From: an uncultured Eubacteriales bacterium
GTDB lineage: Bacteria; Bacillota; Clostridia; Acetivibrionales; STF1-152
DNA: 33,237 nucleotides
NCBI GenBank assembly: GCA_964471145.1
Contig: CAYYGK010000003.1
Coordinates: 1 to 33,237, forward strand
Direction of reading: 5' to 3'
The position numbers and the translations under genes were made by a program. Shown here piece after piece: positions 1,784 through 32,269 of this stretch. The first letter of the stretch is position 1. Each line of letters begins with the position of its first letter. The notes below the pieces were generated by a model, which was given only the letters and a program-made list of their open reading frames with translations, did no database searches and was not told where the DNA came from.

Positions 1784-1894
1784 AGATGGTGGTATGGAAA
1801 GGCTGTAATGCAGCAGATTCAGGTGCTTGAGCTGTGGAAATAGCGGGAAATGAAACCTCTTTTTTCACTTGTTTGTTAAATTAAGCTTTTGGTC

Positions 1895-1923: not shown

Positions 1924-1960
1924 AGTACCTGAAAGTTTTTTGGACAGGGGGATAAAAGAT

Positions 1961-4693: not shown

Positions 4694-4697
4694 AAAA

Positions 4698-5429: not shown

Positions 5430-5430
5430 G

Positions 5431-15895: not shown

Positions 15896-16566
15896 TACAG
15901 AAAGAAAACAGGCACTTGAGGAACTTAAAGCCCGGCAGCAGGGAACGGGACGGCTGTTTCATGGTATCAATAGCCGGAATAGCCGGTGATATAGTGTTCA
16001 ATGAGCTAAAGGGCAGAGAAATCAGGACTGTAGTGCTTGTAAGCACTTTTGACGGTGACGGAAAGAGCGAGATAGCCGACCACCTGGCGTGTGAGTTTGC
16101 CTTTTCCGGAACGCATACGCTGCTTTTGAACATGGACAGGCCAAACCCCGGGGGATATGTGCTCAGAATGCGCAGTTTCAAGGAGGAAGGCCAGATGCCG
16201 GAGATTACCGGAACAAATGTATCAAACCTTGATTACAGTACTCTGTACAGCCGGCTGGAGAGCAGGATACCCGACTATGACAGGGAGTCTTTAAAGGAGC
16301 TGTTCGACTTGTACAGTGAGAAATACAGGAGGATTATAGTTGACACCTCGTCCCTTTCAGCAGATGTGTCAGGCTTCATAGCGGCAGGCCTGGCAGATGC
16401 GGTGTATTTCATTTGCAGCAGGAAGAACATGCGGGCATGGGAAATAACCGACTGCTACAACAGGCTCAGGGACATAGGAGCAAACATGCCTGGTATCATA
16501 TACAACCGATGTTCAAGGCGTACGGTAAGGAAAATATACAAACAGGACGGCAGGGAAAAATGGTGA
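15892..16566 (+). CDS. Degenerate BY-kinase-like P-loop protein lacking the Tyr cluster
   Basis: GTGA overlap, with AGGAGG 10 nt upstream. It aligns with the kinase at 4698 but the motifs are altered: Walker A STFDGDGKS, A' LLLNMDRPNP, B IIVDTSS. There is no C-terminal Tyr run (it ends ...IYKQDGREKW). Confidence 0.55.
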   Translation: MIQKENRHLRNLKPGSRERDGCFMVSIAGIAGDIVFNELKGREIRTVVLVSTFDGDGKSEIADHLACEFAFSGTHTLLLNMDRPNPGGYVLRMRSFKEEGQMPEITGTNVSNLDYSTLYSRLESRIPDYDRESLKELFDLYSEKYRRIIVDTSSLSADVSGFIAAGLADAVYFICSRKNMRAWEITDCYNRLRDIGANMPGIIYNRCSRRTVRKIYKQDGREKW

Positions 16567-20474: not shown

Positions 20475-22491
20475 ATGGAGGATACTGCTGCTTACAGCAG
20501 CTGTAGTGGCGGGGATTATGGCAGTTCCCGCCGCAGACCGTTTCACGGGTGGGCAAACCCGTCCTGTACATGAAGATGCGGGTCACAAATCGATAGTTGT
20601 TAAAAACGAGTATGTTGAACTTAAGTATTATCCATGGCACAGCGTCTTCCTTTTGACAAACCTTAAGAACGGAAGGCAGTATTACACCGAACCTGTATAT
20701 GATTACAGAACCATTGAAGCATATATGACAGGCCCTGACAGTATGGAGGCGGTTTTAAAGCTGAATGGGGAAAAGGGGGGGGCAGAAGTTCTGTGCAGGA
20801 TCTCGCTGGAAGGTGAAAGGATAAGGGGGGAGCTGTGTGCCGACCCTCATGTATCGCTGCTCAGGCCGTTTTCATTTCCCGGGCCTTTTGCGGGGGAGGA
20901 ATCGGTGCAGTACCTGGTGGTACCCTATGCAGAGGGGCTGCTGCTGCCGGCAGAAGGGCATAATCCATTCGGGGAGTTCCTGATGTGGGGTCACAAGTCA
21001 ACTATGCCCTTTGCAGGAATGACCGACTTAAAGACTGGAATCATGTTGATTTCGGACGCACCGGCCGATACATCGGTGGCGTTTGAAAAACCCCGATATG
21101 GCGAAATGCAATTTTCCCTGATGCAGCTTCGGCATTCCCCGGCAAAGGGGGTGTTCGGTTATGACCGTGTGTTCTATATCGACTTTATTGAACAGGACGG
21201 GTACAACGAAATGGCAAAAATATTCAGAAGCCATCTTGAAAAAAGACAGGAGAATGAAAACGATGACGATATGGACCTGCTGGTAACACTCAGGCAGAAG
21301 GCGGAGCAAAACAGGAACATTCACCTTCTTGTGGGGGCGGTGGATTTCTGGATGGGGCCTGAAGGGATGAAAAGCACCCGGATTGTGGATGAATTAAAAG
21401 AAAACGGAATAGAAAAGGCGGTTGTCAACCTGCAGTATGGATGGAAGGTTTACCCTCATGAAGAAAGACCGCTGCTTGTTGACTATATAGCGGAAAAGGG
21501 TATGTTGCCAGGGAGATATGATAATTTCTTCTGTGTTTTTGCTAAAAGCGTATCAGATATAAGCGACAGGTACAGGACAGAGGGTTTTGATGAAGACGTG
21601 ATAATCAAAAAGGACGGCAGCCTCCAGGAAGGATACAGAACCTGGCATAACGGACAACTTGTGCAGGGGTACCGTTTGAATCCCGGATGCGTGCTGGATG
21701 ATGCGAGGAAATATGTAAGAAGGGACCTTCAAAAAAATGCATACCTTTCAAGGTATATAGATGTAACCACATCTGCAAGGCTTTATGAGGACTACTCTGC
21801 TGCCCATCCTATGACCAGGAGGGAGGACATGCGCCACAGGTATAATCTGCTGAAAATGGCAGGCAGGGATTTCGGGCTGGTAACCGGTACAGAAGAGGCT
21901 GTACACTGGTCGGTAGGGATAACTGCATACAGTGAAGGGACAATGACGATAGTACCCCCGCAGGGTGGAGGCTGGAGCACCCCAGTAAGTGACCCGGGCA
22001 GGCTGTATGAGGATTACACTGTAAATCCCGCAGTACGCATACCTCTTAAGTCGCTTGTATACCATGACTGCCATGTTTCGGGATGGTACACGGGAGACAG
22101 CATTTCCAAGGTGCCGTCTTTCTGGAAAACAAAGGAGCTGCTTACGGTTCTGTACGGGGCTATGATACTTGTGTTTCCGGAGAACGAGGCGCACTGGGAG
22201 AGCAGAAAGAAGGATTTCTTGCAGACAATGAGGGTTGCGTCAATGGTTTTTGAAAAAACAGGGTACGAAAGGATGGAAAGGCACGAATTTCTTGACAGTA
22301 AACGCATGGTACAGAAAACGACATTTTCCGGAGGCATTGAAATAACGGTGAATTTTTCTGACAGGCCCTTCCGGGTGAATGACTGTGGGGGATTTACTAT
22401 TCCCCCCGGAGGGTTTTCACTGAGGGAGGGAACATGCATGTGCATATACGGGCTGTGCGGGCAGCATTCAGGGAATGAGGAAGAGAGGTGA
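20452..22491 (+). CDS. Large exported or membrane-anchored protein of unknown family (paralog A, possible glycoside-hydrolase-like)
   Basis: Start taken at ATG 20452 (GGAGAGGGG RBS). Signal anchor MKTTRLPRWRILLLTAAVVAGIMAVPAAD. It shares long conserved blocks with 29119..30960 (VPYAEGLL, MWGHKSTMPF, QYGW.VY, VQGYRLNP, EGTMTI, NPAVRIPL.SLVYHD). Confidence 0.6.
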   Translation: MKTTRLPRWRILLLTAAVVAGIMAVPAADRFTGGQTRPVHEDAGHKSIVVKNEYVELKYYPWHSVFLLTNLKNGRQYYTEPVYDYRTIEAYMTGPDSMEAVLKLNGEKGGAEVLCRISLEGERIRGELCADPHVSLLRPFSFPGPFAGEESVQYLVVPYAEGLLLPAEGHNPFGEFLMWGHKSTMPFAGMTDLKTGIMLISDAPADTSVAFEKPRYGEMQFSLMQLRHSPAKGVFGYDRVFYIDFIEQDGYNEMAKIFRSHLEKRQENENDDDMDLLVTLRQKAEQNRNIHLLVGAVDFWMGPEGMKSTRIVDELKENGIEKAVVNLQYGWKVYPHEERPLLVDYIAEKGMLPGRYDNFFCVFAKSVSDISDRYRTEGFDEDVIIKKDGSLQEGYRTWHNGQLVQGYRLNPGCVLDDARKYVRRDLQKNAYLSRYIDVTTSARLYEDYSAAHPMTRREDMRHRYNLLKMAGRDFGLVTGTEEAVHWSVGITAYSEGTMTIVPPQGGGWSTPVSDPGRLYEDYTVNPAVRIPLKSLVYHDCHVSGWYTGDSISKVPSFWKTKELLTVLYGAMILVFPENEAHWESRKKDFLQTMRVASMVFEKTGYERMERHEFLDSKRMVQKTTFSGGIEITVNFSDRPFRVNDCGGFTIPPGGFSLREGTCMCIYGLCGQHSGNEEER

Positions 22492-22494
22492 TTC

Positions 22495-23274
22495 ATGCTG
22501 GAAGCATGCTGCATATACAGGATAGATGACGTTACACCCGGCATGGACTGGGATAAGTTTACCAGATTTATAGACCTTTTTGGGCAGTACGGGGTAGTGC
22601 CCCTGCTGGGAGTAGTGCCTGACAACAGGGACTTAAACCTGGTGGTGGGAAAGAAGGAGAAGCGTTTCTGGAGCATAATGAGGATGCTCAGGGATGAAGG
22701 AAGGATTGAAATTTCCCAGCACGGGTATCGCCATGTATACATAACCGACAGGATAAACACCTATTACAGGATATGCGGGTTTAACAGGCAGTCCGAATTC
22801 TGCGGTCTTGACTACTGGAAGCAGTACATGATGATAAAGAGGGGGAGGGACATCTTCAGGAGGCATGGTATAGATGTAGACATCTGGATGGCCCCGGCAC
22901 ACTCATTTGACAGGAATACCGAGAGAGCACTCAAGAAACTTGGGTTCAAAGCAGTGACCGATGGTATAGGGCTTTACCCCGTGAAAAGGAACGGCATTGT
23001 ATTCATACCACAGCAGGCATGGGAGCCCGAAAGTTCACGAATAGGGGTAAAGACAATATGCCTGCACCTGAACAATGCAAACAACAGGCTTTACCAGAAG
23101 GTAAGGAGACATCTCCAGAGCGGCGACAGGATCGTGTCATTCAGTTCTGTTGCAGATGGAGAGATTCCGCCCTGGGGAGAAGCCGTCAATACGGCATACA
23201 GGGTCATGTTTCTGCTGCATACGGCAAAGGGCGGTCTAAGAAGAATGGTTCGGCAGGCTGTAAATAACGGGTGA
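22495..23274 (+). CDS. DUF2334-type polysaccharide deacetylase-like protein
   Basis: Blocks YRIDDVTPGMDWDKF, VPLLGVVPDN, EISQHGYRH, and WMAPAHSF...ALKKLGF fit the DUF2334 / predicted deacetylase pattern. Confidence 0.65.
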   Translation: MLEACCIYRIDDVTPGMDWDKFTRFIDLFGQYGVVPLLGVVPDNRDLNLVVGKKEKRFWSIMRMLRDEGRIEISQHGYRHVYITDRINTYYRICGFNRQSEFCGLDYWKQYMMIKRGRDIFRRHGIDVDIWMAPAHSFDRNTERALKKLGFKAVTDGIGLYPVKRNGIVFIPQQAWEPESSRIGVKTICLHLNNANNRLYQKVRRHLQSGDRIVSFSSVADGEIPPWGEAVNTAYRVMFLLHTAKGGLRRMVRQAVNNG

Positions 23275-23801
23275 GGGTTGATGCTATGATAAGACAGCTG
23301 CTCAGGGCAAGGCACAGGTACGGCCTTAAAAAACTGGCCCGAAAAGGCCTTAAGACAGGTAAAAACACCATACTGTTCAACGAGGTGTGGGACTACGGCT
23401 GCAATCCGCATCTTGTTGAGATTGGCAGCAACTGCATAGTAACGGCAGGAACCAAATTCATCACAAATCCTGCAGTCAACCAGTGGGAAGACGGACATGA
23501 CGACAAACAAAGGCAGCATTGCAGGATTATAGTGCATAACAACTGCTTTATAGGGATGAAGGCTGTAATATTTCCCGGCGTAACCATAGGGCCGTGTTCC
23601 ATCATAGGTGCAGGGGCGGTTGTGACCTGTGATGTGCTGCCCGGTACATGCGTGCTGGGAAATCCGGCCAGGGCTGCATGTACGCTGGACACATACATCC
23701 GAATATGCGAAAAGAACCTTATACCGGAATACTCTGCGGAGGAAAAGAGGCGGATTCTGGTGGAGCATTTCTGGGGCGGAGCGGGGCAATACTTTACATG
23801 A
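23271..23801 (+). CDS. Hexapeptide-repeat (left-handed beta-helix) acyl/acetyltransferase 1
   Basis: IVHNNCFIGMKAVIFPGVTIGPCSIIGAGAVVTCDVLPGTCVLGNPAR. The start is GTG 23271 (GTGA overlap) or ATG 23286. Confidence 0.8.
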   Translation: MRVDAMIRQLLRARHRYGLKKLARKGLKTGKNTILFNEVWDYGCNPHLVEIGSNCIVTAGTKFITNPAVNQWEDGHDDKQRQHCRIIVHNNCFIGMKAVIFPGVTIGPCSIIGAGAVVTCDVLPGTCVLGNPARAACTLDTYIRICEKNLIPEYSAEEKRRILVEHFWGGAGQYFT

Positions 23802-24355
23802 AAAAATTGAGGGTATATTCTAAAACAGCAGAAAATATATTGGAAAGTGTGAAAGGCATGTTTATGGAATTGGTAAGAAGAAGACTCATGCGCCGCAAGG
23901 TCAAAAAGCTTATAAAGGCAGGCCTTAGAATAGGCAGGGACACAATGGTTTTCCCACAGATATCGTTTTTCGGGAGTGAACCGTACCTTGTGCATATCGG
24001 GGAGAAGTGCATAATAGCAGACGGGGTGAGGTTCATAACGCATGACGGTGCAATAAGGGTTATAAACAGGACGGAGGAAAACCGCAGGATTGACAACAAA
24101 TACGGCAGGATAGACATAAAGGATAATGTATATGTAGGGGAAGACTCGATTATAATGCCGAATGTGTCGATAGGCCCCGATGCCTGTGTCCTGCCTGGTT
24201 CTGTCGTCTACAGGGACGTGCCTCCAAACACAATAGCGGGGGGAAACCCTGCAATAGTAAGGCACCGGATGAAGGAGTATGGCGGGTATTACCGCAACCT
24301 GCTGTTTCCATATTACGAAAGGTACTGCAGTATTTTCAACAGGCATATACGTTGA
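23798..24355 (+). CDS. Hexapeptide-repeat (left-handed beta-helix) acyl/acetyltransferase 2
   Basis: ATGA overlap with the upstream stop. IDIKDNVYVGEDSIIMPNVSIGPDACVLPGSVVYRDVPPNTIAGGNPA. The ORF-track start at 23648 is rejected because it lies inside the upstream gene. Confidence 0.8.
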   Translation: MKKLRVYSKTAENILESVKGMFMELVRRRLMRRKVKKLIKAGLRIGRDTMVFPQISFFGSEPYLVHIGEKCIIADGVRFITHDGAIRVINRTEENRRIDNKYGRIDIKDNVYVGEDSIIMPNVSIGPDACVLPGSVVYRDVPPNTIAGGNPAIVRHRMKEYGGYYRNLLFPYYERYCSIFNRHIR

Positions 24356-24394
24356 AACAGGACATGCCTTAAGAATGAACACAGGGGGGATATA

Positions 24395-24670
24395 ATGGAC
24401 AGTTTGCAAATAAGGGAAAAACTGGGTCAATTCTTTGAAAGAAGCATACTTTATGGTGAATCGGCTGATGAACTGGACGGAGAAACTTCGCTTGTGGATG
24501 AAGGCTATATCGATTCAACAGGGATTGTGGAACTGGTCTCATTCATAGAAAGGGAATTTGACATGAGGGTAAGGGACATTGAGGTAGTACCTGAGAACTT
24601 CGACACATTCAATGCCCTGTGCATGTTCATAATGAAAAAGCTGCATGCCGGAAAGGAAGAGAAGGTATGA
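24395..24670 (+). CDS. Acyl/peptidyl carrier protein (DltC-like)
   Basis: 91 aa. The phosphopantetheine-attachment-like motif is LVDEGYIDSTGIVELVSFIEREF. A GGGGGGA RBS precedes the start. Confidence 0.75.
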   Translation: MDSLQIREKLGQFFERSILYGESADELDGETSLVDEGYIDSTGIVELVSFIEREFDMRVRDIEVVPENFDTFNALCMFIMKKLHAGKEEKV

Positions 24671-25701
24671 CACACTGCAGCAGATGCGTATTAAGTGATA
24701 ACATCCCTTCGGTGAGCATAGGAAATTCAGGCGTATGCAACTACTGCAGCACATACAGGCAAACCGGTACACCCTGTGCTGAAGGCGACAGGGAGGTTGA
24801 AAGGATTGTCAGGCGCTGCAGGGACAGGAAATACCAGGCGGTGATGGCATACAGCGGCGGAAAAGACAGCTCCTATACACTAAAGCTTTTAAAGGAGCGC
24901 TTTAATATGTCAATACTGGCGGTTACATTCAACAATGGCTTCTTAAGCAAATACTGCTTTGGAAACATAGGGACGGTATGCGACTGTGTGGGGGTTGACA
25001 GCCTGATAGTAAGTTACCCGTCAGGCATGATGGCTCAGATGTTCACCTTCATTGAAGGAGCAGATGTTTTTCCGCCGAGGTCTATGGAAAGGGCAAGCGC
25101 CATATGCAGCCTGTGCATAGCGCTTGTTAAGAATCTTCTTTACCGGGAAGCCATTATAAGGGGGATACCCCTTGTATGCTTCGGCTGGACGCCGGGGCAG
25201 GTATCAACGGCAAGGCCGCTGCTTAAAATGGGGGCAGGTATGATAGAGAGGTCTTTCAAAGCTCTCAGGGATGCGGTCACAGGCAGCCTGGGCAGCGAGT
25301 ATGGAAGGTTTTTCTTAAGCAGGGATTTCATTATGGAGAATGAGAACCGGATACCTTATCTTTACTATCCGTTTGTAAACAACAGGTATGATGAATCCAG
25401 GATATACGCCGAAATAACAAAAATGGGATGGACTGCTCCCGAAAAAACCGACGGAAGCAGTTCCAACTGCATGCTGAATTCATATGCAAACAGGAGCCAT
25501 ATGGAAAGGTACGGCTTCCATCCATATGCATTTGAGCTCAGCAGCCTGGTAAGGGAAGGGTATCTATCAAGGGAAGAAGCCCGGGAAAGGCTTGAAAGGC
25601 GGGGCGATGAAAAAACCTGCGAGCGCATAGCACAGGTTTTAAGGTCAAGAGCAGGTCGAAAAGAAGACACGGGAGGTCGTTACAGTGGAGAAGTTGTATA
25701 A
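24667..25701 (+). CDS. PP-loop ATP pyrophosphatase, N-acetyl-sugar amidotransferase-like (WbuX/PseA type)
   Basis: ATGA overlap. N-terminal Cys knuckle (CSRC...GVCNYC) followed by the PP-loop AYSGGKDSSYTLKLL. Confidence 0.65.
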   Translation: MTHCSRCVLSDNIPSVSIGNSGVCNYCSTYRQTGTPCAEGDREVERIVRRCRDRKYQAVMAYSGGKDSSYTLKLLKERFNMSILAVTFNNGFLSKYCFGNIGTVCDCVGVDSLIVSYPSGMMAQMFTFIEGADVFPPRSMERASAICSLCIALVKNLLYREAIIRGIPLVCFGWTPGQVSTARPLLKMGAGMIERSFKALRDAVTGSLGSEYGRFFLSRDFIMENENRIPYLYYPFVNNRYDESRIYAEITKMGWTAPEKTDGSSSNCMLNSYANRSHMERYGFHPYAFELSSLVREGYLSREEARERLERRGDEKTCERIAQVLRSRAGRKEDTGGRYSGEVV

Positions 25702-27184
25702 TCTTTTATCCCAAAACCTAAGGAAGCACCCCGAAAAGGTTTGCATAAAGGAGGGGCAGGACTGCTGGACTTACAGGCAGATAGCCCTGGCAGGCATGGA
25801 GTTTACAAACCGGCTTAAGCATCATGGTGTTGGCAGGGGAGACAGGGTTGTCATATTCTGTGACAATTCAGCAGAGTATGTTGCCGCGCTGTTCGGCGTG
25901 CTGGGGGCAGGTGCGGCAGCGGTACCCGTAAACACCGGAAGGCTTAAGGGCATAGTTTCATACATAGTGTCAAAATGCCGCCCCGGGGCAGTCGCAACAG
26001 CCGGGCGTGCAAAAACCGTTATAGAGAGTATACTGACCTCGGCGGTCCTCCCGGTACTGCAGGTGCCGAGGCCGTCAGACGGTGACATATCCTGCATGCA
26101 GGATGAAGGGGTAGACCCTGATGATGCGGCAATGATTCTTTTTACATCAGGTACTACGGCATACCCCAAGGGGGTGGTGCTGACCCACGCCAGCCTCCTT
26201 GCAAACACAGAAGCAATTATAAATTACCTGGAGCTTAACGACAGGGATTCTGTCCTTATGACACTTCCGTTTACTTACTCGTATGGGAACTCTGTGCTGC
26301 TAACGCACATGTATGCAGGAGGCACAATAGTAATAGAAAACTCATCCGTATACCCGCTGCGTGTGCTGGAATCCATAAAAAGATACCGTGTGACAGGTTT
26401 TTCAACGGTAGGGTCATACATCAACCTGATGCTGGGTGTTCTCAGGGAGAGCAACTTCCCTGCCGGATATCTTGAGAGCCTTAGATACATGACCTTTGCG
26501 GGAGAGTCTACAAACATAAAGGATATCGAATATTTGAAAGAGGAGTTCCCGCATATCAGACCATATGTGATGTATGGGCAAACTGAGGCATCTGCAAGGC
26601 TGAGCTACCTGCCGCCTGAGCACCTGGAGGAAAAACCGGGGTCGGTCGGAAAGGGGCTTTGCAATGTAACCCTCAGGGTTGTTGACGATAAGGGAAATGA
26701 CGTAGTTCCCGGAGAAACCGGTGAGATTATTGCCTCGGGCCCAAGTATAATGAAGGGGTACTTCGAGGACCCTGGCGCAACACGCAAAGTGATAAGGAAC
26801 GGGTGGCTTCATACAGGTGACAGTGCGGTAATGGACGGGGACGGATTTATCTATGTTAAGGGCAGGAAAAATGATGTTATAAAGCATATGGGGCACAGGA
26901 TAGGGCCGGTTGAAATAGAAAATGTACTCAACGGGTGCAGGCATGTCACCGAGTCTGCTGCTGTTGAGGCGACAGATGAAAACGGAAGGAAAATTATCAT
27001 GGCATATGTGGTGCCAGGGGAAGGCTTTAATGTGGATTTGCTCAGGAGGCATGCGCAGGAAAGGCTGCCGGCATATATGAGGCCTTCTGTTTTCGAAGAA
27101 ATAGATGAGCTTCCCAGGACTGATACGGGCAAGATAAAAAGGGGCGTATTAAGGAGCAGACAATGTGTGGAATTGCGGGACTGA
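25685..27184 (+). CDS. ANL-superfamily adenylate-forming enzyme (acyl/aminoacyl-carrier-protein ligase)
   Basis: LFTSGTTAYPKGVVLTH, YGQTEA, GWLHTGDSAVMDGDGFIYVKGRKNDVIKHMGHRIGPVEIE, and LPRTDTGKIKR. GTG start with a 17-nt overlap. Confidence 0.85.
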   Translation: MEKLYNLLSQNLRKHPEKVCIKEGQDCWTYRQIALAGMEFTNRLKHHGVGRGDRVVIFCDNSAEYVAALFGVLGAGAAAVPVNTGRLKGIVSYIVSKCRPGAVATAGRAKTVIESILTSAVLPVLQVPRPSDGDISCMQDEGVDPDDAAMILFTSGTTAYPKGVVLTHASLLANTEAIINYLELNDRDSVLMTLPFTYSYGNSVLLTHMYAGGTIVIENSSVYPLRVLESIKRYRVTGFSTVGSYINLMLGVLRESNFPAGYLESLRYMTFAGESTNIKDIEYLKEEFPHIRPYVMYGQTEASARLSYLPPEHLEEKPGSVGKGLCNVTLRVVDDKGNDVVPGETGEIIASGPSIMKGYFEDPGATRKVIRNGWLHTGDSAVMDGDGFIYVKGRKNDVIKHMGHRIGPVEIENVLNGCRHVTESAAVEATDENGRKIIMAYVVPGEGFNVDLLRRHAQERLPAYMRPSVFEEIDELPRTDTGKIKRGVLRSRQCVELRD

Positions 27185-29067
27185 TACACAGGGAGTGTCA
27201 AATGGCCGTACTGGAAAAGATGGGTATGACCATAGCACACAGGGGTCCTGATGACACCGGTTACTTCTGTAGCAACGGCACGGGAATGGTGCAAAAGAGA
27301 CTCAGCATTGTGGATATCGAGAATGGAACGCAGCCGGTGTTCAACGAAAAAGGCAGTGTGCTTGCTGTGTTTAACGGCGAAATATATAACCATATGACTC
27401 TGCGGAAGCAGCTTGAAAGGCTGGGACATGTAATGTCAAACAACTCGGATACGGCCGTTCTGCCTCACATGTATGAGGAATATGGAAACGGGATGTTTGA
27501 AAGGCTGTCCGGGCAGTTTGCCATTGCGTTGTATGATATAGCTGGAAAAATGCTCCTGCTTGCCAGGGACAGACTGGGAATAAAACCCCTGTACTTCAGC
27601 CCTCAGGATGCCGGTATTGTTTTTGGTTCTGAGATAAAGGCAATACTTGCTTCCGGGATCATGCCTGCGAGGCTGTGCCACAGGGCGCTGTTTGATACGT
27701 TTACGTTCTGGTCGCCTCAAAAGGATCTTACGGTTTTTGAGGGCATATACTGTTTGCTCCCGGGGGAATACCTTGAATACCGGAATTCAGAAACAACCAG
27801 GACAAGGTACTGGAAACCGGTTTTTGGAAAAGCCGGCAGAAGAGCAGACAGCCAGGAAGTTGCCGGAGAAGTAGAGGCCCTGCTTGAAAAAGCCGTCAGT
27901 AAACGCCTGATGGGGGATGTGGCTGTTTCAGCATACCTCAGCGGGGGAATTGACTCAAGCCTGATAACAGCACTGGCCGCACGGGCTTACAGCGGCCCGC
28001 TTGAAGCGTTTTCCATAACCTTTGAGAATGACGTGTATGATGAATACCCTTACCAGAAGAAGATGTGCGAACACCTGGGTATAAGGCACAATACCGTTGC
28101 CTTCAGCAACAGCCAGATACCGGAAATGATAAGGAAATCAATCTACCATATAGAGGCCCCGCTGCTTCGGGCAGCACCATTACCTCTTCTGAAGCTCTCA
28201 GGGCTGGTTAACAGCTGCAGCCGGAAAGTGGTGCTTTCAGGAGAGGGAGCCGACGAATTTTTCGGGGGATATGACATATTCAGGGAGGTTAAGATAAGGA
28301 ACTATATCAGGGCCCATCCCCGTTCGGAGATCAGAAAGAGGCTTTTTGAAAAGATCAACCTTTTTGTACAGGGAACAGGGCAGGCCGCAACGGCAGGCGG
28401 GCTTAACTATTTTTATATGAATGTGCCGGGAGACGGGTTGCTCGACTCCCACTACACCAGATGGAGACAGTTTATGTTCTTTAAGAGGTTCTTTTCGCAT
28501 AGGATGCGTGCCATGGCGGATGATATGGGCTGTCCCGATTATTTAAGCTCCATAGATCTTCCCGACAGGGATGAGATGCAGAGCTGGACCGATATACAAA
28601 AGAGCCAGTACCTTGAGACCGTTACATTCCTCTCCCCCTATCTGCTTGCATCGCAGGGTGACCGCGTGGCCATGGCAAACTCTGTGGAAGCAAGGTTTCC
28701 GTTCCTTGATGACAGCCTTGTAAGTTACAGCATGGACATGGAAGACAGGTTCAAGATACGTGCTCTGAACGAAAAGTATGTCATAAGGAGTATTGCTTCC
28801 AAATACCTTCCGAATGAAATCATATGCAGAAAGAAATTTCCCTACCGCTCTCCGGTGGACATATCCTGCCTTCTTGAAAATGAATACCTTAAAAGCATGC
28901 TCTCTGCCCGGAAACTGGCTGAATACGATATATTCGACCCTGTGAAGACCGCCTTCTTTATAGAAAAAAGCCTTCAAAAAAGCCGGCCCGGCGAAAGGGA
29001 CATGATGCTTATAATGGGGCTTGTCACCACACAGGTTTTATGCGATGTTTTTTCGGTAAGCACTTGA
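27163..29067 (+). CDS. Asparagine synthase B-like glutamine amidotransferase (WbpS-like)
   Basis: N-terminal nucleophile MCGIAG, a class-II GATase domain, and the PP-loop AYLSGGIDSSLI in the synthetase domain. AAGGAG RBS, 22-nt overlap with the upstream gene. Confidence 0.85.
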   Translation: MCGIAGLIHRECQMAVLEKMGMTIAHRGPDDTGYFCSNGTGMVQKRLSIVDIENGTQPVFNEKGSVLAVFNGEIYNHMTLRKQLERLGHVMSNNSDTAVLPHMYEEYGNGMFERLSGQFAIALYDIAGKMLLLARDRLGIKPLYFSPQDAGIVFGSEIKAILASGIMPARLCHRALFDTFTFWSPQKDLTVFEGIYCLLPGEYLEYRNSETTRTRYWKPVFGKAGRRADSQEVAGEVEALLEKAVSKRLMGDVAVSAYLSGGIDSSLITALAARAYSGPLEAFSITFENDVYDEYPYQKKMCEHLGIRHNTVAFSNSQIPEMIRKSIYHIEAPLLRAAPLPLLKLSGLVNSCSRKVVLSGEGADEFFGGYDIFREVKIRNYIRAHPRSEIRKRLFEKINLFVQGTGQAATAGGLNYFYMNVPGDGLLDSHYTRWRQFMFFKRFFSHRMRAMADDMGCPDYLSSIDLPDRDEMQSWTDIQKSQYLETVTFLSPYLLASQGDRVAMANSVEARFPFLDDSLVSYSMDMEDRFKIRALNEKYVIRSIASKYLPNEIICRKKFPYRSPVDISCLLENEYLKSMLSARKLAEYDIFDPVKTAFFIEKSLQKSRPGERDMMLIMGLVTTQVLCDVFSVST

Positions 29068-29118
29068 AACACAAAAACAGGTGTGTCGTTTCTGATTCTT
29101 TTGGCATAAGCTGAAAGT

Positions 29119-30960
29119 ATGAATGGATATTATAAAATCAGAAACAACCGAATAGGGTTTATGTTTGACAGTGACAGGGCCGTGTTTGAGCTTACAAGCT
29201 GGAGGACCGGTCTTGTCTACCGCACCGAAAGACCGGATGAGGTAACAGCAAATGGTGTACGATGCGGCAGCGGCAACACGCTTGAGATTGAACTTGAAGC
29301 TCAGGGGCATCAGTTGCATCTTACAGTATCACTTGAAGGGTGCGCCGCCAGGTTTGATCTCAGCTTTGGAGAAGGGTTTGAAAGCAGTGCTGCTTTTGCA
29401 TTTCCCGGGGAGGTAACTGCTCCGGAACAGGACCAGTATTTTGCGGTTCCGTATGCGGAGGGGCTTCTTACACCTGTAACGCAGCAGCATCCATATGGTG
29501 AATACATCATGTGGGGCCATAAGTCGACAATGCCTTTTACAGGGGTAACCGGCATTCATACCGGCACAGGAATCATGCTGGTTTCTGAAGATTTTGCCGA
29601 CACATCTGTAACCTTCAGGAGGAGAGGAGGCAGCAACTACCGCATGATGATGCGGCATTTTCCTCAGAAGGGTGAATACTTAAGTACAAGGACGTTCTAT
29701 TTTACGGTCATTGAAGAAAACGGTTATGTTGCAATGGCAAAGTGGTACAGGAACCATCTTTTAAAGAGGGGAGAGATTGTAGCGCTCTCAGACAGGGCGC
29801 AGCAGAACCCGAACATCAGAAAGCTTGTAGGGGCGGCGGATGTGTGGCTGGGTGACCATACAAAGAACAGAGAGGTTGTCGATGATATAATCTTTTCGGG
29901 CGTCGGCAAAGCACTGTTCAATTTCCAGTATGGATGGTATGTTTATGACAGCGAGAAGCGTCCTGACCTTATAAGGCATGTAAATGAACAGGGAATGATA
30001 GCAAGCAGGTATGATAACTATACTGATGTATTTGAGCCTTCTGCAGCAGAGCTGTCTCCCAGGTTCAGGATACCGGGGTATGATAATGACTGCATAAGAA
30101 ACAGTGACGGGACCAGGCTCAAGGGATACCATGTGAACTACAAAGGACATTTTGTACAGGGCTACCGGCTTAATCCCTCCACCCAGACAGGGGTTGCATT
30201 GGACAGGATTGGGGAAGACCTCGAAGAGAACAGTTACAACGGCCGGTTTATAGATGTGAATACATCCGACTCCCTCCATGAAGACTACTCGGAGAACCAT
30301 CCTGCAGACAGGTTCGAACACGCAATGCACAGGCGAAGGATTCTGGGAGAGATAAGAAGGACCTTCAATTTTGTTATGGGCAGTGAGGAATCCCGGCACT
30401 GGGCGATGGGTGTTACCGACTACGGGGAGGGAACCATGACAATAGAACCTGCCATGGGAGCAGGATACGGTTGGTACACCCCTGTTGATGACCCCGGGGC
30501 AAAGTATATGGAATACAATGTGAATCCGGCAGTAAGGATACCGCTTGTTTCACTTGTGTATCATGATGCGCATATCTCGACCTGGTACACCGGGGACGGT
30601 GTTTCAAAGGTTCCGGCTGTATGGGCCGTTAAAGACTTGTTTACCGCACTTTATGGAACGATGCAGCTTGTATCCCCTCCCGACTTGACATACTGGAGAA
30701 GCAACAGGGGTAAGTTTCTGCATTCCATATATGCAACAACCCGTGTATTTGATACGGTAGGTTATTCGGAAATGACAAATCACAGATTTCTTACAGACGA
30801 CAGATTGGTACAGCAAACCGAATTTGGCAACGGTTATTCGGTTGTGGCAAATTTCGGACAGAGCGGATATGAGTGCTGTGCAAGAACTGTTCCGCCCATG
30901 GGGTTTACATTCCTTTCGGGAAATAATCACATATTTGTTTACTCCCACCTTTCCGGCTGA
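29119..30960 (+). CDS. Large protein of unknown family (paralog B of 20452..22491), no signal peptide
   Basis: 613 aa, beginning MNGYYKIRNN with no hydrophobic leader. It has the same conserved blocks as paralog A. The RBS is weak (GAAAG). Confidence 0.6.
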   Translation: MNGYYKIRNNRIGFMFDSDRAVFELTSWRTGLVYRTERPDEVTANGVRCGSGNTLEIELEAQGHQLHLTVSLEGCAARFDLSFGEGFESSAAFAFPGEVTAPEQDQYFAVPYAEGLLTPVTQQHPYGEYIMWGHKSTMPFTGVTGIHTGTGIMLVSEDFADTSVTFRRRGGSNYRMMMRHFPQKGEYLSTRTFYFTVIEENGYVAMAKWYRNHLLKRGEIVALSDRAQQNPNIRKLVGAADVWLGDHTKNREVVDDIIFSGVGKALFNFQYGWYVYDSEKRPDLIRHVNEQGMIASRYDNYTDVFEPSAAELSPRFRIPGYDNDCIRNSDGTRLKGYHVNYKGHFVQGYRLNPSTQTGVALDRIGEDLEENSYNGRFIDVNTSDSLHEDYSENHPADRFEHAMHRRRILGEIRRTFNFVMGSEESRHWAMGVTDYGEGTMTIEPAMGAGYGWYTPVDDPGAKYMEYNVNPAVRIPLVSLVYHDAHISTWYTGDGVSKVPAVWAVKDLFTALYGTMQLVSPPDLTYWRSNRGKFLHSIYATTRVFDTVGYSEMTNHRFLTDDRLVQQTEFGNGYSVVANFGQSGYECCARTVPPMGFTFLSGNNHIFVYSHLSG

Positions 30961-31009
30961 TATAATGTAGGTGTTCAGGCAGGATTCCAGTACATTCAGA
31001 TTTTTTAAC

Positions 31010-31057
31010 AAAAACCAGTAGAACATATGATGGCTGGTTTTTTCCTGCCCTTTTTTT
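31010..31057 (+). terminator. Rho-independent terminator closing the long operon
   Basis: AAAAACCAG (31010..31018) pairs with CTGGTTTTT (31034..31042), followed by a T run. An outer 7-bp pairing, GGCAGGA (30978..30984) with TCCTGCC (31043..31049), is followed by T7 (31051..31057). Confidence 0.45.
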
Positions 31058-31081
31058 ACTATATGGAAGCGTGGTGATAGG

Positions 31082-32269
31082 ATGGCGGAGTCGGACAGGC
31101 TCAGCGTATGCTTTGTGATGTTTGGTTGCTATCCCCTTTTCAACAGGGGCGGCAACCATGTTTTTGGGGGTTCTGAGCTTGAGCTTTACAACCTGGGCAT
31201 CTGCATGGCTCGCAGAGGGGTCAGGGTGGATTTTATTGTGGGGGATTACGGACAGGATGATGTGGAATACCGGGAGGGAATAAGGCTTTTAAAGGTGCGG
31301 TACATGAAGCTGGACAAATACAGGTCGCTGCCTTACAGGATATTAAGGTACTGGCAGTTTCTAAAGGTTCTTTACAGGCAGAACGCTGATGTCTTCATAA
31401 CAAAGACTGCCTCGGAAATTATAGGGTGGATGGTACTGGTTCAAAAAATATTAAAAAGGAGTAAGGTTGTATTCCGTCTGGGCAGTGACAGGGATACTGA
31501 TATTGCATCATGGAGAGGTATGGGCATAAAATTCTATCACCTTTACAGGCTGGGTCTTTTAAAAAGCGACCTGGTCTATACGCAGTCACAGGTACAGAAG
31601 GAGAGACTTATGAAGGCAGTATCCGTCTCAAGCCATGTCGTAAAGAACGCATTTATTCTAAATAAGGCTGTTTCACCTTTGAGAGACCAGGGCTACATAC
31701 TCTGGGTTTCAAGATGTGAGGCGCTAAAGAGGCCGATGCTTTATGTAAGACTCGCAGCAAGACTGCCGGAACAAAAGTTTATAATTATCATGCCGCATAC
31801 AAATAAGGGAGACAGGAGGCGGGATAAAAAAACAGCTTCTATAGCGGCATGTGTCAAGAAGGCGGCTGCAGAACTTCCCAACCTTTCATACATCGGGTTT
31901 GTACCTTTTGATGACATACAGGAGTATTATGATGGCGCACGGCTTTTTGTAAACACGTCTGAGTATGAGGGCTTTCCAAACAGCTTTATACAGGCATGCC
32001 TCGGGAGGACCGGCATACTCTCATTCAGGGTAAATCCGGACGGCTTCATTACAGATGAAGGCATAGGAATCTGCTGTAACGACAGCCTTGACAGAGCAGT
32101 TGAATTTATAAGAGGGATGGATGACATAAAGGCTCATGAAATGGGGAGAAATGCTTACCGATATGTGGCAGAAAACCACAATGCGGAAAGGATTGCCGAA
32201 GGGTACATCCGGGATTTTGCGCATGTTGCACAAAAAGAGCACAAGATGCAAGGGCGGTGCTGCATATGA
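31082..32269 (+). CDS. GT4-like glycosyltransferase (tandem paralog 1)
   Basis: 395 aa. N-terminus LSVCFVMFGCYPLF...GGSELELYNL. C-terminal block FVNTSEYEGFPNSFIQACLGRTGILSFRVNPD. Confidence 0.75.
   Translation: MAESDRLSVCFVMFGCYPLFNRGGNHVFGGSELELYNLGICMARRGVRVDFIVGDYGQDDVEYREGIRLLKVRYMKLDKYRSLPYRILRYWQFLKVLYRQNADVFITKTASEIIGWMVLVQKILKRSKVVFRLGSDRDTDIASWRGMGIKFYHLYRLGLLKSDLVYTQSQVQKERLMKAVSVSSHVVKNAFILNKAVSPLRDQGYILWVSRCEALKRPMLYVRLAARLPEQKFIIIMPHTNKGDRRRDKKTASIAACVKKAAAELPNLSYIGFVPFDDIQEYYDGARLFVNTSEYEGFPNSFIQACLGRTGILSFRVNPDGFITDEGIGICCNDSLDRAVEFIRGMDDIKAHEMGRNAYRYVAENHNAERIAEGYIRDFAHVAQKEHKMQGRCCI

What the first reader, a model, noticed from the sequence alone, without database searches (positions are those of the whole stretch)
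24395..29067. Four-gene carrier-protein / PP-loop / adenylating enzyme / AsnB cassette: an uncharacterised polysaccharide amidation or acylation module
Four tightly overlapping genes make up the cassette.
- A DltC-like carrier protein (EGYIDSTGIVELVSFIEREF).
- A WbuX/PseA-like PP-loop enzyme with an N-terminal Cys knuckle (CSRC..CNYC, SGGKDS).
- An ANL adenylating enzyme (SGTTAYPKG, GKIKR).
- An AsnB-like glutamine amidotransferase (MCGIAG, SGGIDSS).
Characterised systems use subsets of these parts. DltA/DltC carries out D-alanylation of teichoic acid. V. cholerae O1 RfbK/RfbL is an ACP plus ligase pair for the tetronate N-acyl group. P. aeruginosa WbpS is AsnB-like and is proposed to form uronamides. 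WbuX works with the HisH/HisF-like partners WbuY/WbuZ to make acetamidino sugars.

Here the WbuX-like enzyme has no HisH/HisF-like partner, and all four functions are fused into one translationally coupled block. I know of no characterised pathway with this composition.

Hypothesis: a carrier-tethered carboxylic or amino acid is amidated and/or transferred to the sugar, or uronate carboxyls are converted to amides or aminoacyl-amides.
Basis: partly seen in the sequence, partly recalled or inferred. Interest (0 to 1): 0.72.

Follow-up and report, generated by a model that had tools for sequence, protein, structure and literature searches.

The report
Carrier-protein acyl-tailoring cassette in EPS locus
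Four overlapping genes in a clostridial exopolysaccharide operon form a widely conserved but uncharacterised unit that probably builds an unusual amide-, amidine- or thioamide-bearing acyl group on a small carrier protein and attaches it to the sugar polymer.

Summary
Four co-directional, overlapping ORFs encode a 91-aa carrier protein, a Zn-ribbon/PP-loop enzyme, an ANL adenylating ligase and a glutamine-dependent AsnB.

The interpretation needs correcting on three points.

- **Conservation.** In 39 well-flanked related loci from many phyla, the PP-loop gene sits with the carrier in 37 and with the ligase in 36, in varying gene order. It also occurs fused to each of them, and embedded inside NRPS adenylation domains. 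It therefore most likely works on a carrier-tethered substrate.
- **Family of the PP-loop enzyme.** It is not a canonical WbuX/PseA enzyme: it scores 103 bits against a cut-off of 203. It is a sister subfamily, about equidistant from the sugar amidotransferases (NASAT, structure 8WEX) and from CtaC. CtaC is the Fe-S thioamide synthetase of closthioamide, which acts only on carrier-bound amides. The invariant Cys triad of this family aligns with the CtaC cluster ligands.
- **Role of AsnB.** AsnB is present in 24 of the 39 loci and is never found together with a NadE-like amidating enzyme (6 of 39).

In Bacillota the unit extends upstream to hexapeptide acyltransferase(s), and in some lineages to a DUF2334 deacetylase.

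Best model, inferred rather than shown:
1. The ligase loads an acid onto the carrier.
2. AsnB makes a carboxamide.
3. The PP-loop enzyme converts the amide to an amidine or thioamide.
4. The acyltransferase moves the product onto a de-N-acetylated sugar.

No characterised pathway has this composition.

The parts
22495..23274 (+). DUF2334 / polysaccharide-deacetylase-like protein. Candidate de-N-acetylase that frees the acceptor amine.
   Evidence: PF10096 scores 129 bits and Polysacc_deac_1 26 bits. It is syntenic upstream of the cassette in L004 and L007-L011. The role is inferred.
23271..23801 (+). Hexapeptide-repeat (LbH) acyltransferase A.
   Evidence: Hexapep/Hexapep_2 hits. NeuD/PglB/VioB scores 55 bits and maltose O-acetyltransferase 49 bits, both below cut-off. 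It is syntenic in clostridial relatives.
23798..24355 (+). Hexapeptide-repeat (LbH) acyltransferase B. Candidate transferase for the carrier-borne acyl group.
   Evidence: ATG 23798 overlaps the stop of the upstream gene in an ATGA arrangement, and the protein has Hexapep hits. An LbH gene directly precedes ACP-PP-ANL-AsnB in free-standing operons (L003, L013, L019). In L005 the LbH gene is inserted between the PP-loop and ANL genes.
24395..24670 (+). Stand-alone carrier protein (type II ACP/PCP), 91 aa, with phosphopantetheine attachment at Ser41 in the motif IDSTG.
   Evidence: PP-binding scores 18.8 bits. The AmcB and OlsHI ACP models score 36-38 bits. PDB sequence hits are PltL, PigG and aminoacyl carrier proteins. 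The motif G..DSTG.LELV is conserved in at least 80% of 63 homologues.
24667..25701 (+). Zn-ribbon / PP-loop ATP pyrophosphatase with a Cys triad. It is a sister to NASAT and CtaC.
   Evidence: Features: C4, C7, C24, C27 (Zn ribbon); SGGKDS at 63-68; C147, C150 and C268 invariant in 60 homologues. TIGR03573 scores 103 bits against a cut-off of 203. The AF2 model has pLDDT 90.2, and its best PDB match is 8wex with TM 0.68. BLASTP against CtaC gives E 2e-16 over the full length. hhalign against the CtaC and NASAT alignments gives probability 99.7 for each.
25685..27184 (+). ANL-superfamily adenylating ligase. It is the probable loader of the carrier protein.
   Evidence: AMP-binding scores 255 bits and AMP-binding_C 51 bits. 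Motifs SGTTAYPKG (A3), TGD and GKIKR (A10 Lys) are present and conserved in 76 homologues. There is no Asp at the A4 position that binds an alpha-amino group. ANL-PP-loop fusions P0252 and P0290 exist.
27163..29067 (+). Glutamine-hydrolysing AsnB-family amidotransferase.
   Evidence: TIGR01536 scores 445 bits, above its cut-off of 267. TIGR03108 scores 365 bits, below its cut-off of 817. Cys2 (MCGI) and SGG.DS are conserved in 43 homologues. The best PDB sequence hits are 7ylz (hydroxyamidotransferase) and 1ct9 (AsnB).

Best explanation
The cassette is a stand-alone, type II thiotemplated module. It makes a modified acyl group on a carrier protein and donates it to the exopolysaccharide.

Proposed steps, all inferred and none shown biochemically:
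1. The ANL ligase adenylates a carboxylic acid that lacks an alpha-amino group, most simply a dicarboxylate. It then thioesterifies the acid to Ser41-phosphopantetheine of the 91-aa carrier.
2. AsnB converts the free carboxylate to a carboxamide, using glutamine-derived ammonia. In other lineages a NadE-like enzyme does this step.
3. The Zn-ribbon/PP-loop/Cys-triad enzyme adenylates that amide oxygen on the carrier-bound substrate. It replaces the oxygen with NH (amidine, NASAT-type chemistry) or with S (thioamide, CtaC-type chemistry). The sequence cannot decide between the two.
4. One of the two hexapeptide acyltransferases encoded immediately upstream moves the finished acyl group from the carrier onto a sugar amine. 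That amine is exposed by the upstream DUF2334 deacetylase, following the LpxC then LpxD logic.

What is actually shown: the gene anatomy, the intact catalytic motifs, the cross-phylum linkage, the fusions and the family relationships.
For: Anatomy and motifs:
- The genes overlap on one strand with ribosome-binding sites, and no terminator signal above chance lies within 20000-32500.
- Catalytic motifs are intact and conserved in all four proteins.

Linkage across genomes:
- Of 39 related loci with at least 6 kb of flank on both sides, 37 have the carrier, 36 the ligase and 34 both. Gene order differs between phyla: ACP-PP-ANL-AsnB in Bacillota, and ACP-ANL-PP, AsnB-ACP-ANL-PP or PP-ACP-ANL elsewhere.
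- Fusion proteins link the parts physically. P0252 and P0290 are ANL-PP-loop. P0293 is ACP-PP-loop. P0334 and P0389 have the PP-loop domain inserted between the core and C-terminal subdomain of an NRPS adenylation domain, followed by a PCP. P0378 is A-[PP-loop]-PCP-BtrH_N-like.

Closest characterised enzyme:
- CtaC acts only on PCP-tethered amides (PMC6772006). I retrieved CtaC as P0399 and verified it by residue numbering and by its locus.
- ORF2 aligns with CtaC over the full length at E 2e-16. The Zn Cys residues, D67/S68 and C147/C150/C268 sit opposite CtaC D77/S78 and C154/C157/C284.

Amidation step:
- AsnB occurs in 24 of 39 well-flanked loci and a NadE-like enzyme in 6 of 39, never together (Fisher p = 0.0015). 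The NadE-like gene lies between the ANL and PP-loop genes and scores above the NAD synthase cut-off.
- The set ACP-PP-ANL...AsnB also occurs where no sugar genes are present. Examples are free-standing operons in Sporobacter and Oscillospiraceae and a type II PKS/FAS-like cluster on a B. thuringiensis plasmid. This favours AsnB acting on the tethered acid rather than on a uronate.

Transfer step:
- An LbH gene heads the free-standing operons, and in L005 it is inserted inside the module.
- A deacetylase is a frequent neighbour: DUF2334 in some Bacillota loci (L004, L007-L011 and the window), and Polysacc_deac_1+DUF3473 in Desulfobacterota.

Ligase substrate:
- The ligase has no Asp at the alpha-amino-binding position.
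Against: - No biochemical data exist for any member of this subfamily. The acid substrate cannot be read from the ligase sequence.
- About 23% of well-flanked loci (9 of 39) have neither AsnB nor a NadE-like gene within 8 kb. The amide-making step is therefore not universal, or it is encoded elsewhere.
- Hexapeptide transferases are found near the trio in only 10 of 39 well-flanked loci. They look like generic WcaF/maltose-type O-acetyltransferases and could simply O-acetylate the polymer with acetyl-CoA.
- The window encodes two UDP-sugar dehydrogenases. AsnB-like WbpS enzymes are known to amidate uronates (PMC7468200), so AsnB could act on the sugar.
- The Cys triad is also aligned in a WbuX-type enzyme that has HisH/HisF partners (L086). 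The triad therefore does not prove sulfur chemistry.
- The related loci are not phylogenetically independent, so the co-occurrence statistics overstate significance.
Confidence: 0.5

Rival explanations
1. The PP-loop protein would be a WbuX/PseA-type N-acetyl sugar amidotransferase that converts a sugar acetamido group to acetamidino. AsnB would supply ammonia in place of HisH/HisF. The carrier and ligase would form a separate, Dlt- or RfbK/L-like acylation system.
For: - The defining NASAT motifs are present: the tetracysteine motif and the PP-loop (PMC10607449).
- The TIGR03573 alignment is full length at 103 bits.
- The best structural match is 8wex, with TM 0.68.
- The gene sits in a polysaccharide locus.
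Against: - The score is half the family cut-off. BLASTP similarity to three canonical NASATs covers only the N-terminal 175 residues or so.
- None of the three canonical NASAT loci examined has a carrier protein or a ligase. By contrast, this subfamily has the carrier in 37 and the ligase in 36 of 39 well-flanked loci, and it is fused to them and embedded in NRPS modules.
- The NadE-like alternative to AsnB has no glutaminase domain. The shared role is therefore carboxylate amidation rather than ammonia delivery.
- The carrier and ligase fail the DltC and DltA models.
Confidence: 0.15
2. AsnB would work independently of the other three genes, as a WbpS/WbtH-like uronamide synthase on a uronic acid residue of the EPS. 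The carrier, ligase and PP-loop trio would make a separate acyl substituent.
For: - Two UDP-glucose/ManNAc dehydrogenase-family genes are present in the window (1889-3277 and 11440-12792).
- AsnB-like PGN_1234 (WbpS) makes a glucuronamide, and related AsnB genes (TIGR03108) are general components of PEP-CTERM EPS loci (PMC7468200).
- This AsnB scores 365 bits on TIGR03108.
- AsnB is absent from 38% of well-flanked trio loci.
Against: - In Bacillota the order ACP-PP-ANL-AsnB is fixed. It persists in operons with no sugar genes nearby, and AsnB also occurs in a PKS-like cluster in B. thuringiensis.
- AsnB and the NadE-like gene are mutually exclusive, and the NadE-like gene is embedded between the ANL and PP-loop genes.
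- The TIGR03108 score is far below its cut-off of 817.
Confidence: 0.22
3. The cassette would make a diffusible small molecule or lipid, for example a thioamide- or amide-containing metabolite made in an NRPS-independent thiotemplated way as closthioamide is. On this view it is only a passenger in the EPS operon.
For: - The same gene set occurs free-standing and inside a PKS/FAS-like cluster that has ABC exporters, a PPTase and a radical SAM enzyme.
- Relatives of the PP-loop domain sit in NRPS megasynthases.
- Closthioamide is made by stand-alone enzymes in a related clostridial lineage (PMC6772006; locus L090).
Against: - In the window the genes overlap with each other and are co-directional with the flanking EPS genes, with no terminator signal above chance in the scanned region.
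- The block GH129-like, DUF2334, LbH, LbH, ACP, PP, ANL, AsnB is syntenic within EPS loci of several Bacillota.
- In other phyla the trio lies in exosortase/PEP-CTERM EPS loci, next to priming transferases, deacetylases and chain-length regulators.
- No thioesterase, condensation or release enzyme is present in the window.
Confidence: 0.1

Closest known systems
CtaC with the carrier CtaE and ligase CtaI of closthioamide biosynthesis (Ruminiclostridium cellulolyticum; PMC6772006)
   Same: - CtaC has the same architecture: an N-terminal Zn-binding Cys motif, a PP-loop (SGGKDS) and three Cys at equivalent aligned positions.
- It is about 350 aa and encoded beside stand-alone carrier proteins and an ANL ligase.
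- It acts only on carrier-tethered amides.
- The similarity is full length: BLASTP E 2e-16, hhalign probability 99.7.
   Different: - Identity is only 23%. CtaC was not among the best 150 hits of the subfamily profile.
- The cta cluster has an ATP-grasp enzyme, a papain-like ligase and a transglutaminase. It has no AsnB, no LbH transferase and no sugar genes.
- CtaC thioamidates backbone beta-alanyl amides of a peptide. Here the only amide-forming enzyme is AsnB, so the substrate would be a primary amide.
- Fe-S binding and sulfur use are untested here.
N-acetyl sugar amidotransferases (NASAT: WbuX, WbpG, PseA-type; LpNASAT structure 8WEX; PMC10607449)
   Same: - Both have the tetracysteine Zn motif and the PP-loop.
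- 8WEX is the best structural match (TM 0.68).
- Both occur in polysaccharide loci.
- hhalign probability is 99.7.
   Different: - The score is below the TIGR03573 cut-off. Identity is 17-20%, and the canonical inserts and C-terminal extension are missing.
- The canonical loci examined have no carrier or ligase. They have HisH/HisF or nonulosonate genes instead.
- LpNASAT-like and Alistipes enzymes lack the Cys triad.
WbpS / PGN_1234 AsnB-like uronamide synthases and the XrtA/PEP-CTERM amidotransferase family TIGR03108 (PMC7468200)
   Same: These are glutamine-dependent AsnB-family enzymes encoded in surface-polysaccharide loci. In Desulfobacterota and Nitrospirota the trio lies in exosortase loci together with such AsnB genes, FemAB-like genes and deacetylase genes.
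   Different: The AsnB here scores 365 bits against a cut-off of 817 on TIGR03108. It keeps a fixed position after the ligase even where no sugar genes are present, and AsnB also accompanies the ACP-PP-ANL set in a B. thuringiensis cluster without sugar genes.
DltA/DltC D-alanylation, and the V. cholerae O1 RfbK/RfbL/RfbO carrier-ligase-acetyltransferase set (the latter from memory, not tested)
   Same: The logic is the same: a stand-alone ligase loads a small carrier protein, and the acyl group is then passed to a cell-surface glycopolymer. RfbO is a hexapeptide transferase, as are the genes upstream here.
   Different: - The DltC and DltA models score far below their cut-offs.
- The ligase has no alpha-amino-binding Asp.
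- No DltB or DltD is present.
- Neither system contains a PP-loop enzyme or an AsnB.
LpxC/LpxD (deacetylase followed by an LbH acyl-ACP N-acyltransferase), BtrI/BtrH of butirosin, and OxyD of oxytetracycline (analogies from established knowledge, not tested here)
   Same: - Deacetylate-then-reacylate logic, using an LbH enzyme and acyl-ACP.
- Transfer of a tailored acyl group from an ACP to an amino sugar. A BtrH_N-like domain is fused after A-[PP-loop]-PCP in P0378.
- An AsnB homologue that makes a thioester-activated carboxamide (malonamyl) unit.
   Different: There is no detectable orthology to LpxC, LpxD, BtrH or OxyD in the window. These are resemblances in mechanism only.

Membership tests
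NASAT / WbuX (TIGR03573) | PP-loop SGGXDS | tested here: met
   SGGKDS at residues 63-68 is invariant in 60 homologues and aligned with three canonical NASATs.
NASAT / WbuX (TIGR03573) | Tetracysteine motif CXXCXn[GN]XCXXC (Zn site), as defined in PMC10607449 | tested here: met
   C4, C7, G22, C24 and C27 align with the canonical motif.
NASAT / WbuX (TIGR03573) | Score at or above the curated family cut-off | tested here: not met
   The score is 103.2 bits against a cut-off of 203.2. The ORF2-family profile scores canonical NASATs at only 42-58 bits, over the N-terminal third.
NASAT / WbuX (TIGR03573) | Fold like LpNASAT (8WEX) | tested here: met
   Foldseek gives E 7e-14, TMq 0.68 and 346 aligned columns for a model with pLDDT 90.2.
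NASAT / WbuX (TIGR03573) | HisH/HisF-like (WbuY/WbuZ) partner or nonulosonate/nucleotide-sugar partner genes | tested here: not met
   No HisH or HisF is present in the window. Canonical examples have hisH-hisF (L086) or neuB/neuC (L085).
NASAT / WbuX (TIGR03573) | Converts a sugar N-acetyl group to acetamidino | not testable with these tools
   This needs an enzyme assay or the EPS structure.
CtaC-type thiotemplated thioamide synthetase (Fe-S AANH) | ATP-binding motif with the essential Asp-Ser pair (CtaC D77/S78) | tested here: met
   D67/S68 align with D77/S78 in BLASTP and hhalign. CtaC was identified as P0399 by numbering and locus.
CtaC-type thiotemplated thioamide synthetase (Fe-S AANH) | Three Cys ligands of the [4Fe-4S] cluster (CtaC C154, C157, C284) | tested here: met
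   C147, C150 and C268 align with them and are invariant in 60 homologues. Caveat: aligned Cys residues also occur in a WbuX-type enzyme, L086.
CtaC-type thiotemplated thioamide synthetase (Fe-S AANH) | Works with a carrier protein (genomic association) | tested here: met
   The carrier is present in 37 of 39 well-flanked loci. ACP-, ANL- and NRPS-embedded fusions also exist.
CtaC-type thiotemplated thioamide synthetase (Fe-S AANH) | Close sequence membership in the CtaC clade | tested here: inconclusive
   Identity is 23% at E 2e-16 over the full length. The hhalign score is 192.5 against CtaC and 190.1 against NASAT. CtaC is not among the top 150 profile hits.
CtaC-type thiotemplated thioamide synthetase (Fe-S AANH) | Binds an Fe-S cluster and inserts sulfide into an amide | not testable with these tools
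   This needs anaerobic reconstitution and mass spectrometry.
DltA/DltC D-alanylation system | DltC and DltA equivalog scores, the alpha-amino-binding Asp, and DltB/DltD partners | tested here: not met
   DltC models score 16-21 bits against cut-offs of 52-68. DltA models score 189-193 bits against cut-offs of 476-560. The A4 motif LPFTYSYG has no Asp. No MBOAT or DltD is present in the window.
Asparagine synthase B family (TIGR01536) | N-terminal Cys nucleophile, PP-loop synthetase domain, and a score above the cut-off | tested here: met
   MCGIAG and SGGIDSS are present. The score is 445 bits against a cut-off of 267.
XrtA/PEP-CTERM system amidotransferase (TIGR03108) | Score above the curated cut-off, and an exosortase context | tested here: not met
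   The score is 365 bits against a cut-off of 817. No exosortase is present in the window, although distant relatives of the cassette do lie in exosortase loci.
ANL adenylating enzymes | AMP-binding core, C-terminal subdomain, and the A3 and A10 motifs | tested here: met
   PF00501 scores 255 bits and PF13193 51 bits. SGTTAYPKG and GKIKR are present.

The most novel reading that the evidence does not exclude
The PP-loop enzyme is an oxygen-sensitive [4Fe-4S] thioamide synthetase like CtaC. On this reading it converts a carrier-tethered primary carboxamide, freshly made by AsnB, into a thioamide, and the thioacyl group is then attached to the exopolysaccharide. That would be the first thioamide-decorated polysaccharide. 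It would also be the first thiotemplated thioamidation outside peptide natural products, and it would occur in EPS and PEP-CTERM loci of many, mostly anaerobic, phyla.
Probability: 0.18. Interest if true: 0.88.

Novelty: new variant of a known kind. Interest (0 to 1): 0.64.

Why it matters
- **Scale.** The profile search found 408 clusters (at 50% identity) with E of 1e-30 or better, and 278 relatives among 185,579 species genomes. These come from Bacillota, Desulfobacterota, Nitrospirota, Spirochaetota, Zixibacteria and other phyla. They sit mostly in exopolysaccharide or exosortase/PEP-CTERM loci, whose chemistry is largely unknown.
- **Annotation.** Sources currently label these proteins 'TilS/MesJ', 'QueC' or 'hypothetical'. 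Recognising the subfamily as a carrier-protein-dependent sister of CtaC and of the sugar amidotransferases gives the loci a concrete, testable chemistry: an acyl group carrying an amide, amidine or thioamide.
- **Broader links.** The finding connects polysaccharide decoration with thiotemplated natural-product logic. It also explains the embedded PP-loop domains in NRPS adenylation domains.
- **A tractable relative.** The B. thuringiensis plasmid cluster offers a genetically workable organism in which to determine the chemistry.

Tried and rejected
- **Protein search with an 8WEX fragment.** A 92-aa fragment returned only truncated proteins. Canonical NASATs were obtained instead from annotated plasmids.
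- **Cluster-member look-up.** This was meant to match accession numbers with the CtaC homologue table of PMC6772006. It returned no accessions.
- **Retrieving CtaC.** I first rebuilt CtaC peptides from mutagenesis primers in the paper's supplement. Fuzzy matching found no CtaC among the proteins already held. A query of those peptides joined by X spacers then retrieved the real CtaC.
- **Literature searches.** Searches for the gene combination found nothing. Haft 2006 does not mention these genes in its text. Craig et al. 2011, on PEP-CTERM-linked N-acyl amino acid synthases, is not held.
- **Ligase substrate.** The best hits are spread over NRPS A domains, fatty-acyl, feruloyl, OSB, oxalate and malonate ligases at similar scores. 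I could conclude only that the alpha-amino-binding Asp is absent.
- **Sulfur-carrier or desulfurase genes near the trio.** Small neighbouring ORFs turned out to be MazE-like or PqqD-like proteins, or IS elements.
- **Promoter and terminator scan.** Counts were at chance level.
- **Cys triad as proof of sulfur chemistry.** Rejected, because a HisH/HisF-linked WbuX-type enzyme has aligned Cys residues.
- **AsnB as a mere ammonia donor for the PP-loop enzyme.** Rejected, because its NadE-like substitute lacks a glutaminase domain.

Full report
**1.

The region 24395-29067 carries four + strand ORFs:
- a 91-aa carrier protein (24395-24670);
- a 344-aa PP-loop protein (ATG 24667-25701);
- a 499-aa ANL ligase (GTG 25685-27184);
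- a 634-aa AsnB (27163-29067).

Homologues of the PP-loop protein all begin at the position of ATG 24667. The junctions overlap by 4, 17 and 22 nt, and ribosome-binding sites precede the starts.

Family scans agree with the assignments:
- AMP-binding, 255 bits;
- Asn_synthase, 263 bits, and TIGR01536, 445 bits (above cut-off);
- TIGR03573 'WbuX', 103 bits, about half its cut-off of 203;
- PP-binding, 18.8 bits, with type II carrier models at about 37 bits.

The carrier Ser41 (IDSTG) is conserved in at least 80% of 63 homologues. The same analysis shows conservation of the ligase A3 and A10 motifs, and of the AsnB Cys2 and SGG.DS motifs.

**2. Context in the window**

The whole window is one + strand Firmicute-type EPS locus. 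It contains:
- two UDP-sugar dehydrogenases;
- Wzz, a tyrosine kinase and a CpsB phosphatase;
- an epimerase and a priming Bac_transf enzyme;
- two sulfotransferases;
- several GT4 glycosyltransferases and a MurJ-like flippase;
- two GH129/DUF5696-like proteins flanking the cassette.

Directly upstream of the cassette lie a DUF2334 deacetylase-like gene (22495-23274) and two hexapeptide acyltransferases (23271-23801 and 23798-24355). No HisH or HisF homologue is present. No promoter or terminator signal above chance separates the genes.

**3. The cassette is conserved, and its core is a trio**

The PP-loop protein has about 800 homologues at E below 1e-5. They are mostly unnamed or mislabelled as TilS/MesJ or QueC. 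A scan of one genome per species found 278 relatives, and I analysed 80 loci.

Among the 39 loci with at least 6 kb of flank on both sides:
- 37 have the carrier, 36 the ligase, and 34 both;
- 24 have AsnB;
- 6 have a NadE-like NAD-synthase-family gene, and none of these has AsnB (Fisher p = 0.0015, with the caveat that the loci are phylogenetically related).

Gene order is ACP-PP-ANL-AsnB in all Bacillota loci. In Desulfobacterota, Nitrospirota, Spirochaetota and others the order is shuffled, to ACP-ANL-PP, AsnB-ACP-ANL-PP or PP-ACP-ANL. Shuffled order with retained proximity is good evidence of functional coupling.

The NadE-like gene sits between the ligase and PP-loop genes and passes the NAD synthase subfamily cut-off. 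AsnB and NadE both amidate carboxylates through acyl-adenylates. Their mutual exclusion therefore points to a carboxylate-to-carboxamide step in the pathway.

**4. Neighbourhoods**

- In several clostridial loci the block GH129-like, DUF2334, LbH, (LbH), ACP, PP, ANL, AsnB is syntenic with the window.
- In Sporobacter and Oscillospiraceae genomes a five-gene operon, LbH-ACP-PP-ANL-AsnB, stands alone with no sugar genes nearby.
- In L005 the LbH gene is inserted between the PP-loop and ligase genes.
- In Desulfobacterota and Nitrospirota the trio lies in exosortase/PEP-CTERM EPS loci. These contain Bac_transf, a tyrosine kinase, a Polysacc_deac_1+DUF3473 deacetylase, a FemAB-like protein, a DegT aminotransferase and EpsH.
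- On a 359-kb Bacillus thuringiensis plasmid, ACP, PP-loop (42% identical), two ligases and two PCPs are followed by a type II PKS/FAS-like cluster with no glycosyltransferases. Its genes are KS, TE, FabZ, KS-like, FabG, AsnB, a PPTase, a radical SAM enzyme and ABC exporters.

The module is therefore portable between polysaccharide loci and small-molecule loci.

**5. What the PP-loop enzyme is**

It carries the two motifs that define the N-acetyl sugar amidotransferases: the tetracysteine Zn site and SGGXDS (PMC10607449). A confident AF2 model (pLDDT 90.2) matches LpNASAT 8WEX best (TM 0.68, E 7e-14). The next matches are the [4Fe-4S] sulfurtransferases TtuA, LarE and YcfA.

It is nevertheless not a canonical NASAT.
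- It is only 17-20% identical to three canonical NASATs taken from annotated plasmids. One is LpNASAT-like, one lies next to neuB/neuC, and one is followed by hisH-hisF.
- BLASTP aligns just the N-terminal 175 residues or so.
- The subfamily profile scores these NASATs at only 42-58 bits.

The subfamily has three further invariant cysteines: C147 and C150 in ERASxICxxC, and C268 in NCxLN.

**6. Fusions place the enzyme on a carrier protein**

A profile search of 1.84 billion representatives found 408 hits at E of 1e-30 or better. These include several fusion proteins:
- ANL-PP-loop (P0252, 314 bits; P0290);
- ACP-PP-loop (P0293);
- NRPS modules in which the PP-loop domain is inserted between the core and C-terminal subdomains of the adenylation domain and is followed by a PCP, for example P0334 (C-A[PP]-PCP) and P0389 (A[PP]-PCP-TE);
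- P0378, which is A[PP]-PCP followed by a BtrH_N-like domain.

All embedded domains keep the Zn ribbon, SGGKDS, CxxC and the third Cys. Tailoring domains embedded at this site of A domains act on the tethered substrate; this is established NRPS knowledge rather than something tested here.

**7. Link to CtaC**

The only characterised carrier-dependent PP-loop enzyme I could find is CtaC of closthioamide biosynthesis. It is an Fe-S enzyme with a Zn site, an ATP motif (D77/S78) and cluster ligands C154, C157 and C284. It thioamidates only PCP-bound substrates (PMC6772006).

I retrieved CtaC itself (P0399). I verified it by its residue numbering and by its ctaA-K locus in R. cellulolyticum CP001348.

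ORF2 aligns with CtaC end to end, at 23% identity and E 2e-16. Every functional residue sits opposite its counterpart.

Profile-profile comparison puts the ORF2 family equally far from the two relatives:
- CtaC family: score 192.5, E 1.2e-26, 321 columns;
- canonical NASATs: score 190.1, E 3.4e-26, 298 columns.

It is therefore a third, sister subfamily. The Cys triad cannot decide the chemistry, because the HisH/HisF-linked NASAT (L086) has aligned Cys residues, whereas the LpNASAT-like and Alistipes enzymes do not.

**8. The other parts**

- The ligase is mid-way between NRPS A domains and acyl-CoA ligases. Its best PDB hit is the second A domain of LgrA at 220 bits, followed by fatty-acyl, feruloyl and OSB ligases. 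It has no Asp at the alpha-amino-binding A4 position. A DltA-like amino-acid substrate is therefore unlikely.
- The carrier resembles type II PCPs.
- AsnB keeps its glutaminase Cys. Its nearest solved relatives are a hydroxyamidotransferase (7ylz) and E. coli AsnB.
- The hexapeptide transferases are generic by sequence.

**9. Model**

The steps, all inferred, are:
1. Load an acid on the carrier.
2. Amidate its free carboxylate (AsnB here, a NadE-like enzyme elsewhere).
3. Replace the amide oxygen with NH or S, using the PP-loop enzyme, while the substrate stays tethered.
4. Transfer the product, by an LbH acyltransferase, to a sugar amine exposed by the DUF2334 deacetylase.

The main uncertainties are:
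- the identity of the acid;
- whether AsnB acts on the tethered acid or on a uronate, since WbpS-type chemistry is known (PMC7468200) and two dehydrogenases are present in the window;
- whether the LbH enzymes use the carrier or acetyl-CoA;
- nitrogen versus sulfur chemistry.

**10. Novelty**

No paper in the searchable library describes this gene combination. The parts and the thiotemplated logic are known. The combination, its setting in polysaccharide loci and its breadth are not. I rate it a new variant of a known kind, of above-average interest.

Noticed in passing
window 9367-10269 and 12813-13682 (+): Two Sulfotransfer_3/Sulfotransfer_1-family genes lie inside a Firmicute-type EPS operon. 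This suggests a sulfated exopolysaccharide, which is unusual for Bacillota.
   Followed up: no
window 10209-10727 and 10728-11495 (+): A GT4 glycosyltransferase is split into two adjacent ORFs. One carries the Glyco_transf_4 N-terminal half and the other the Glycos_transf_1 C-terminal half. It could be an interrupted gene, a two-piece enzyme or an assembly error.
   Followed up: no
window 15176-15895 and 15892-16566 (+): A second, divergent chain-length-determinant and tyrosine-kinase-like pair is present, scoring 50 bits on TIGR01006 and 40 bits on TIGR01007. This is in addition to the Wzz, kinase and CpsB set at 4010-6225.
   Followed up: no
window 20356-22491 and 29119-30960 (+): Two paralogous GH129/DUF5696-like proteins bracket the deacetylase, acyltransferase and cassette block. 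One such gene lies near the cassette (upstream or downstream) in clostridial relatives L004 and L007-L010. Their role in an EPS synthesis operon is unclear.
   Followed up: partly
L087/L089 (B. thuringiensis HD1002 plasmid NZ_CP009349.1, about 310-332 kb): A plasmid-borne type II PKS/FAS-like cluster contains ACP, the PP-loop enzyme (annotated by PGAP as '7-cyano-7-deazaguanine synthase'), two ANL ligases, two PCPs, KS genes, FabZ, FabG, a TE, AsnB, a PPTase, a radical SAM enzyme and ABC exporters. I found no description of its product.
   Followed up: partly
P0334, P0354, P0357, P0361, P0389, P0378, P0380, P0383, P0386: These are NRPS megasynthases whose adenylation domains are interrupted by a CtaC/NASAT-like PP-loop domain bearing the Zn ribbon and Cys triad. 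I did not find this domain architecture described in the papers searched.
   Followed up: partly
L086:6959-8164 compared with L084:6848-8131 and L085:6956-8101: Canonical sugar amidotransferases differ in the TtuA/CtaC-type Cys triad. The HisH/HisF-linked enzyme has aligned CxxC and third Cys residues. The LpNASAT-like and Alistipes enzymes lack them. This hints that some NASATs may carry a second metal or Fe-S site.
   Followed up: partly
L012:7470-8591 and L017:7418-8590: A beta-ketoacyl synthase gene sits just upstream of ACP-PP-ANL in two unrelated loci. In L017 the ligase is cut short and is followed by transposase genes.
   Followed up: no
L020:17870-18133 and L045:2275-2550: PqqD-like small proteins lie in the EPS loci that carry the cassette. 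This may be the HPr-kinase-related/PqqD system associated with EPS loci.
   Followed up: no
window 236-1318 (+): This ORF has a weak YhgA-like transposase hit (PF04754, 19 bits, below cut-off). It lies at the low-GC left edge of the contig (GC 0.36-0.41, against about 0.49 elsewhere).
   Followed up: no
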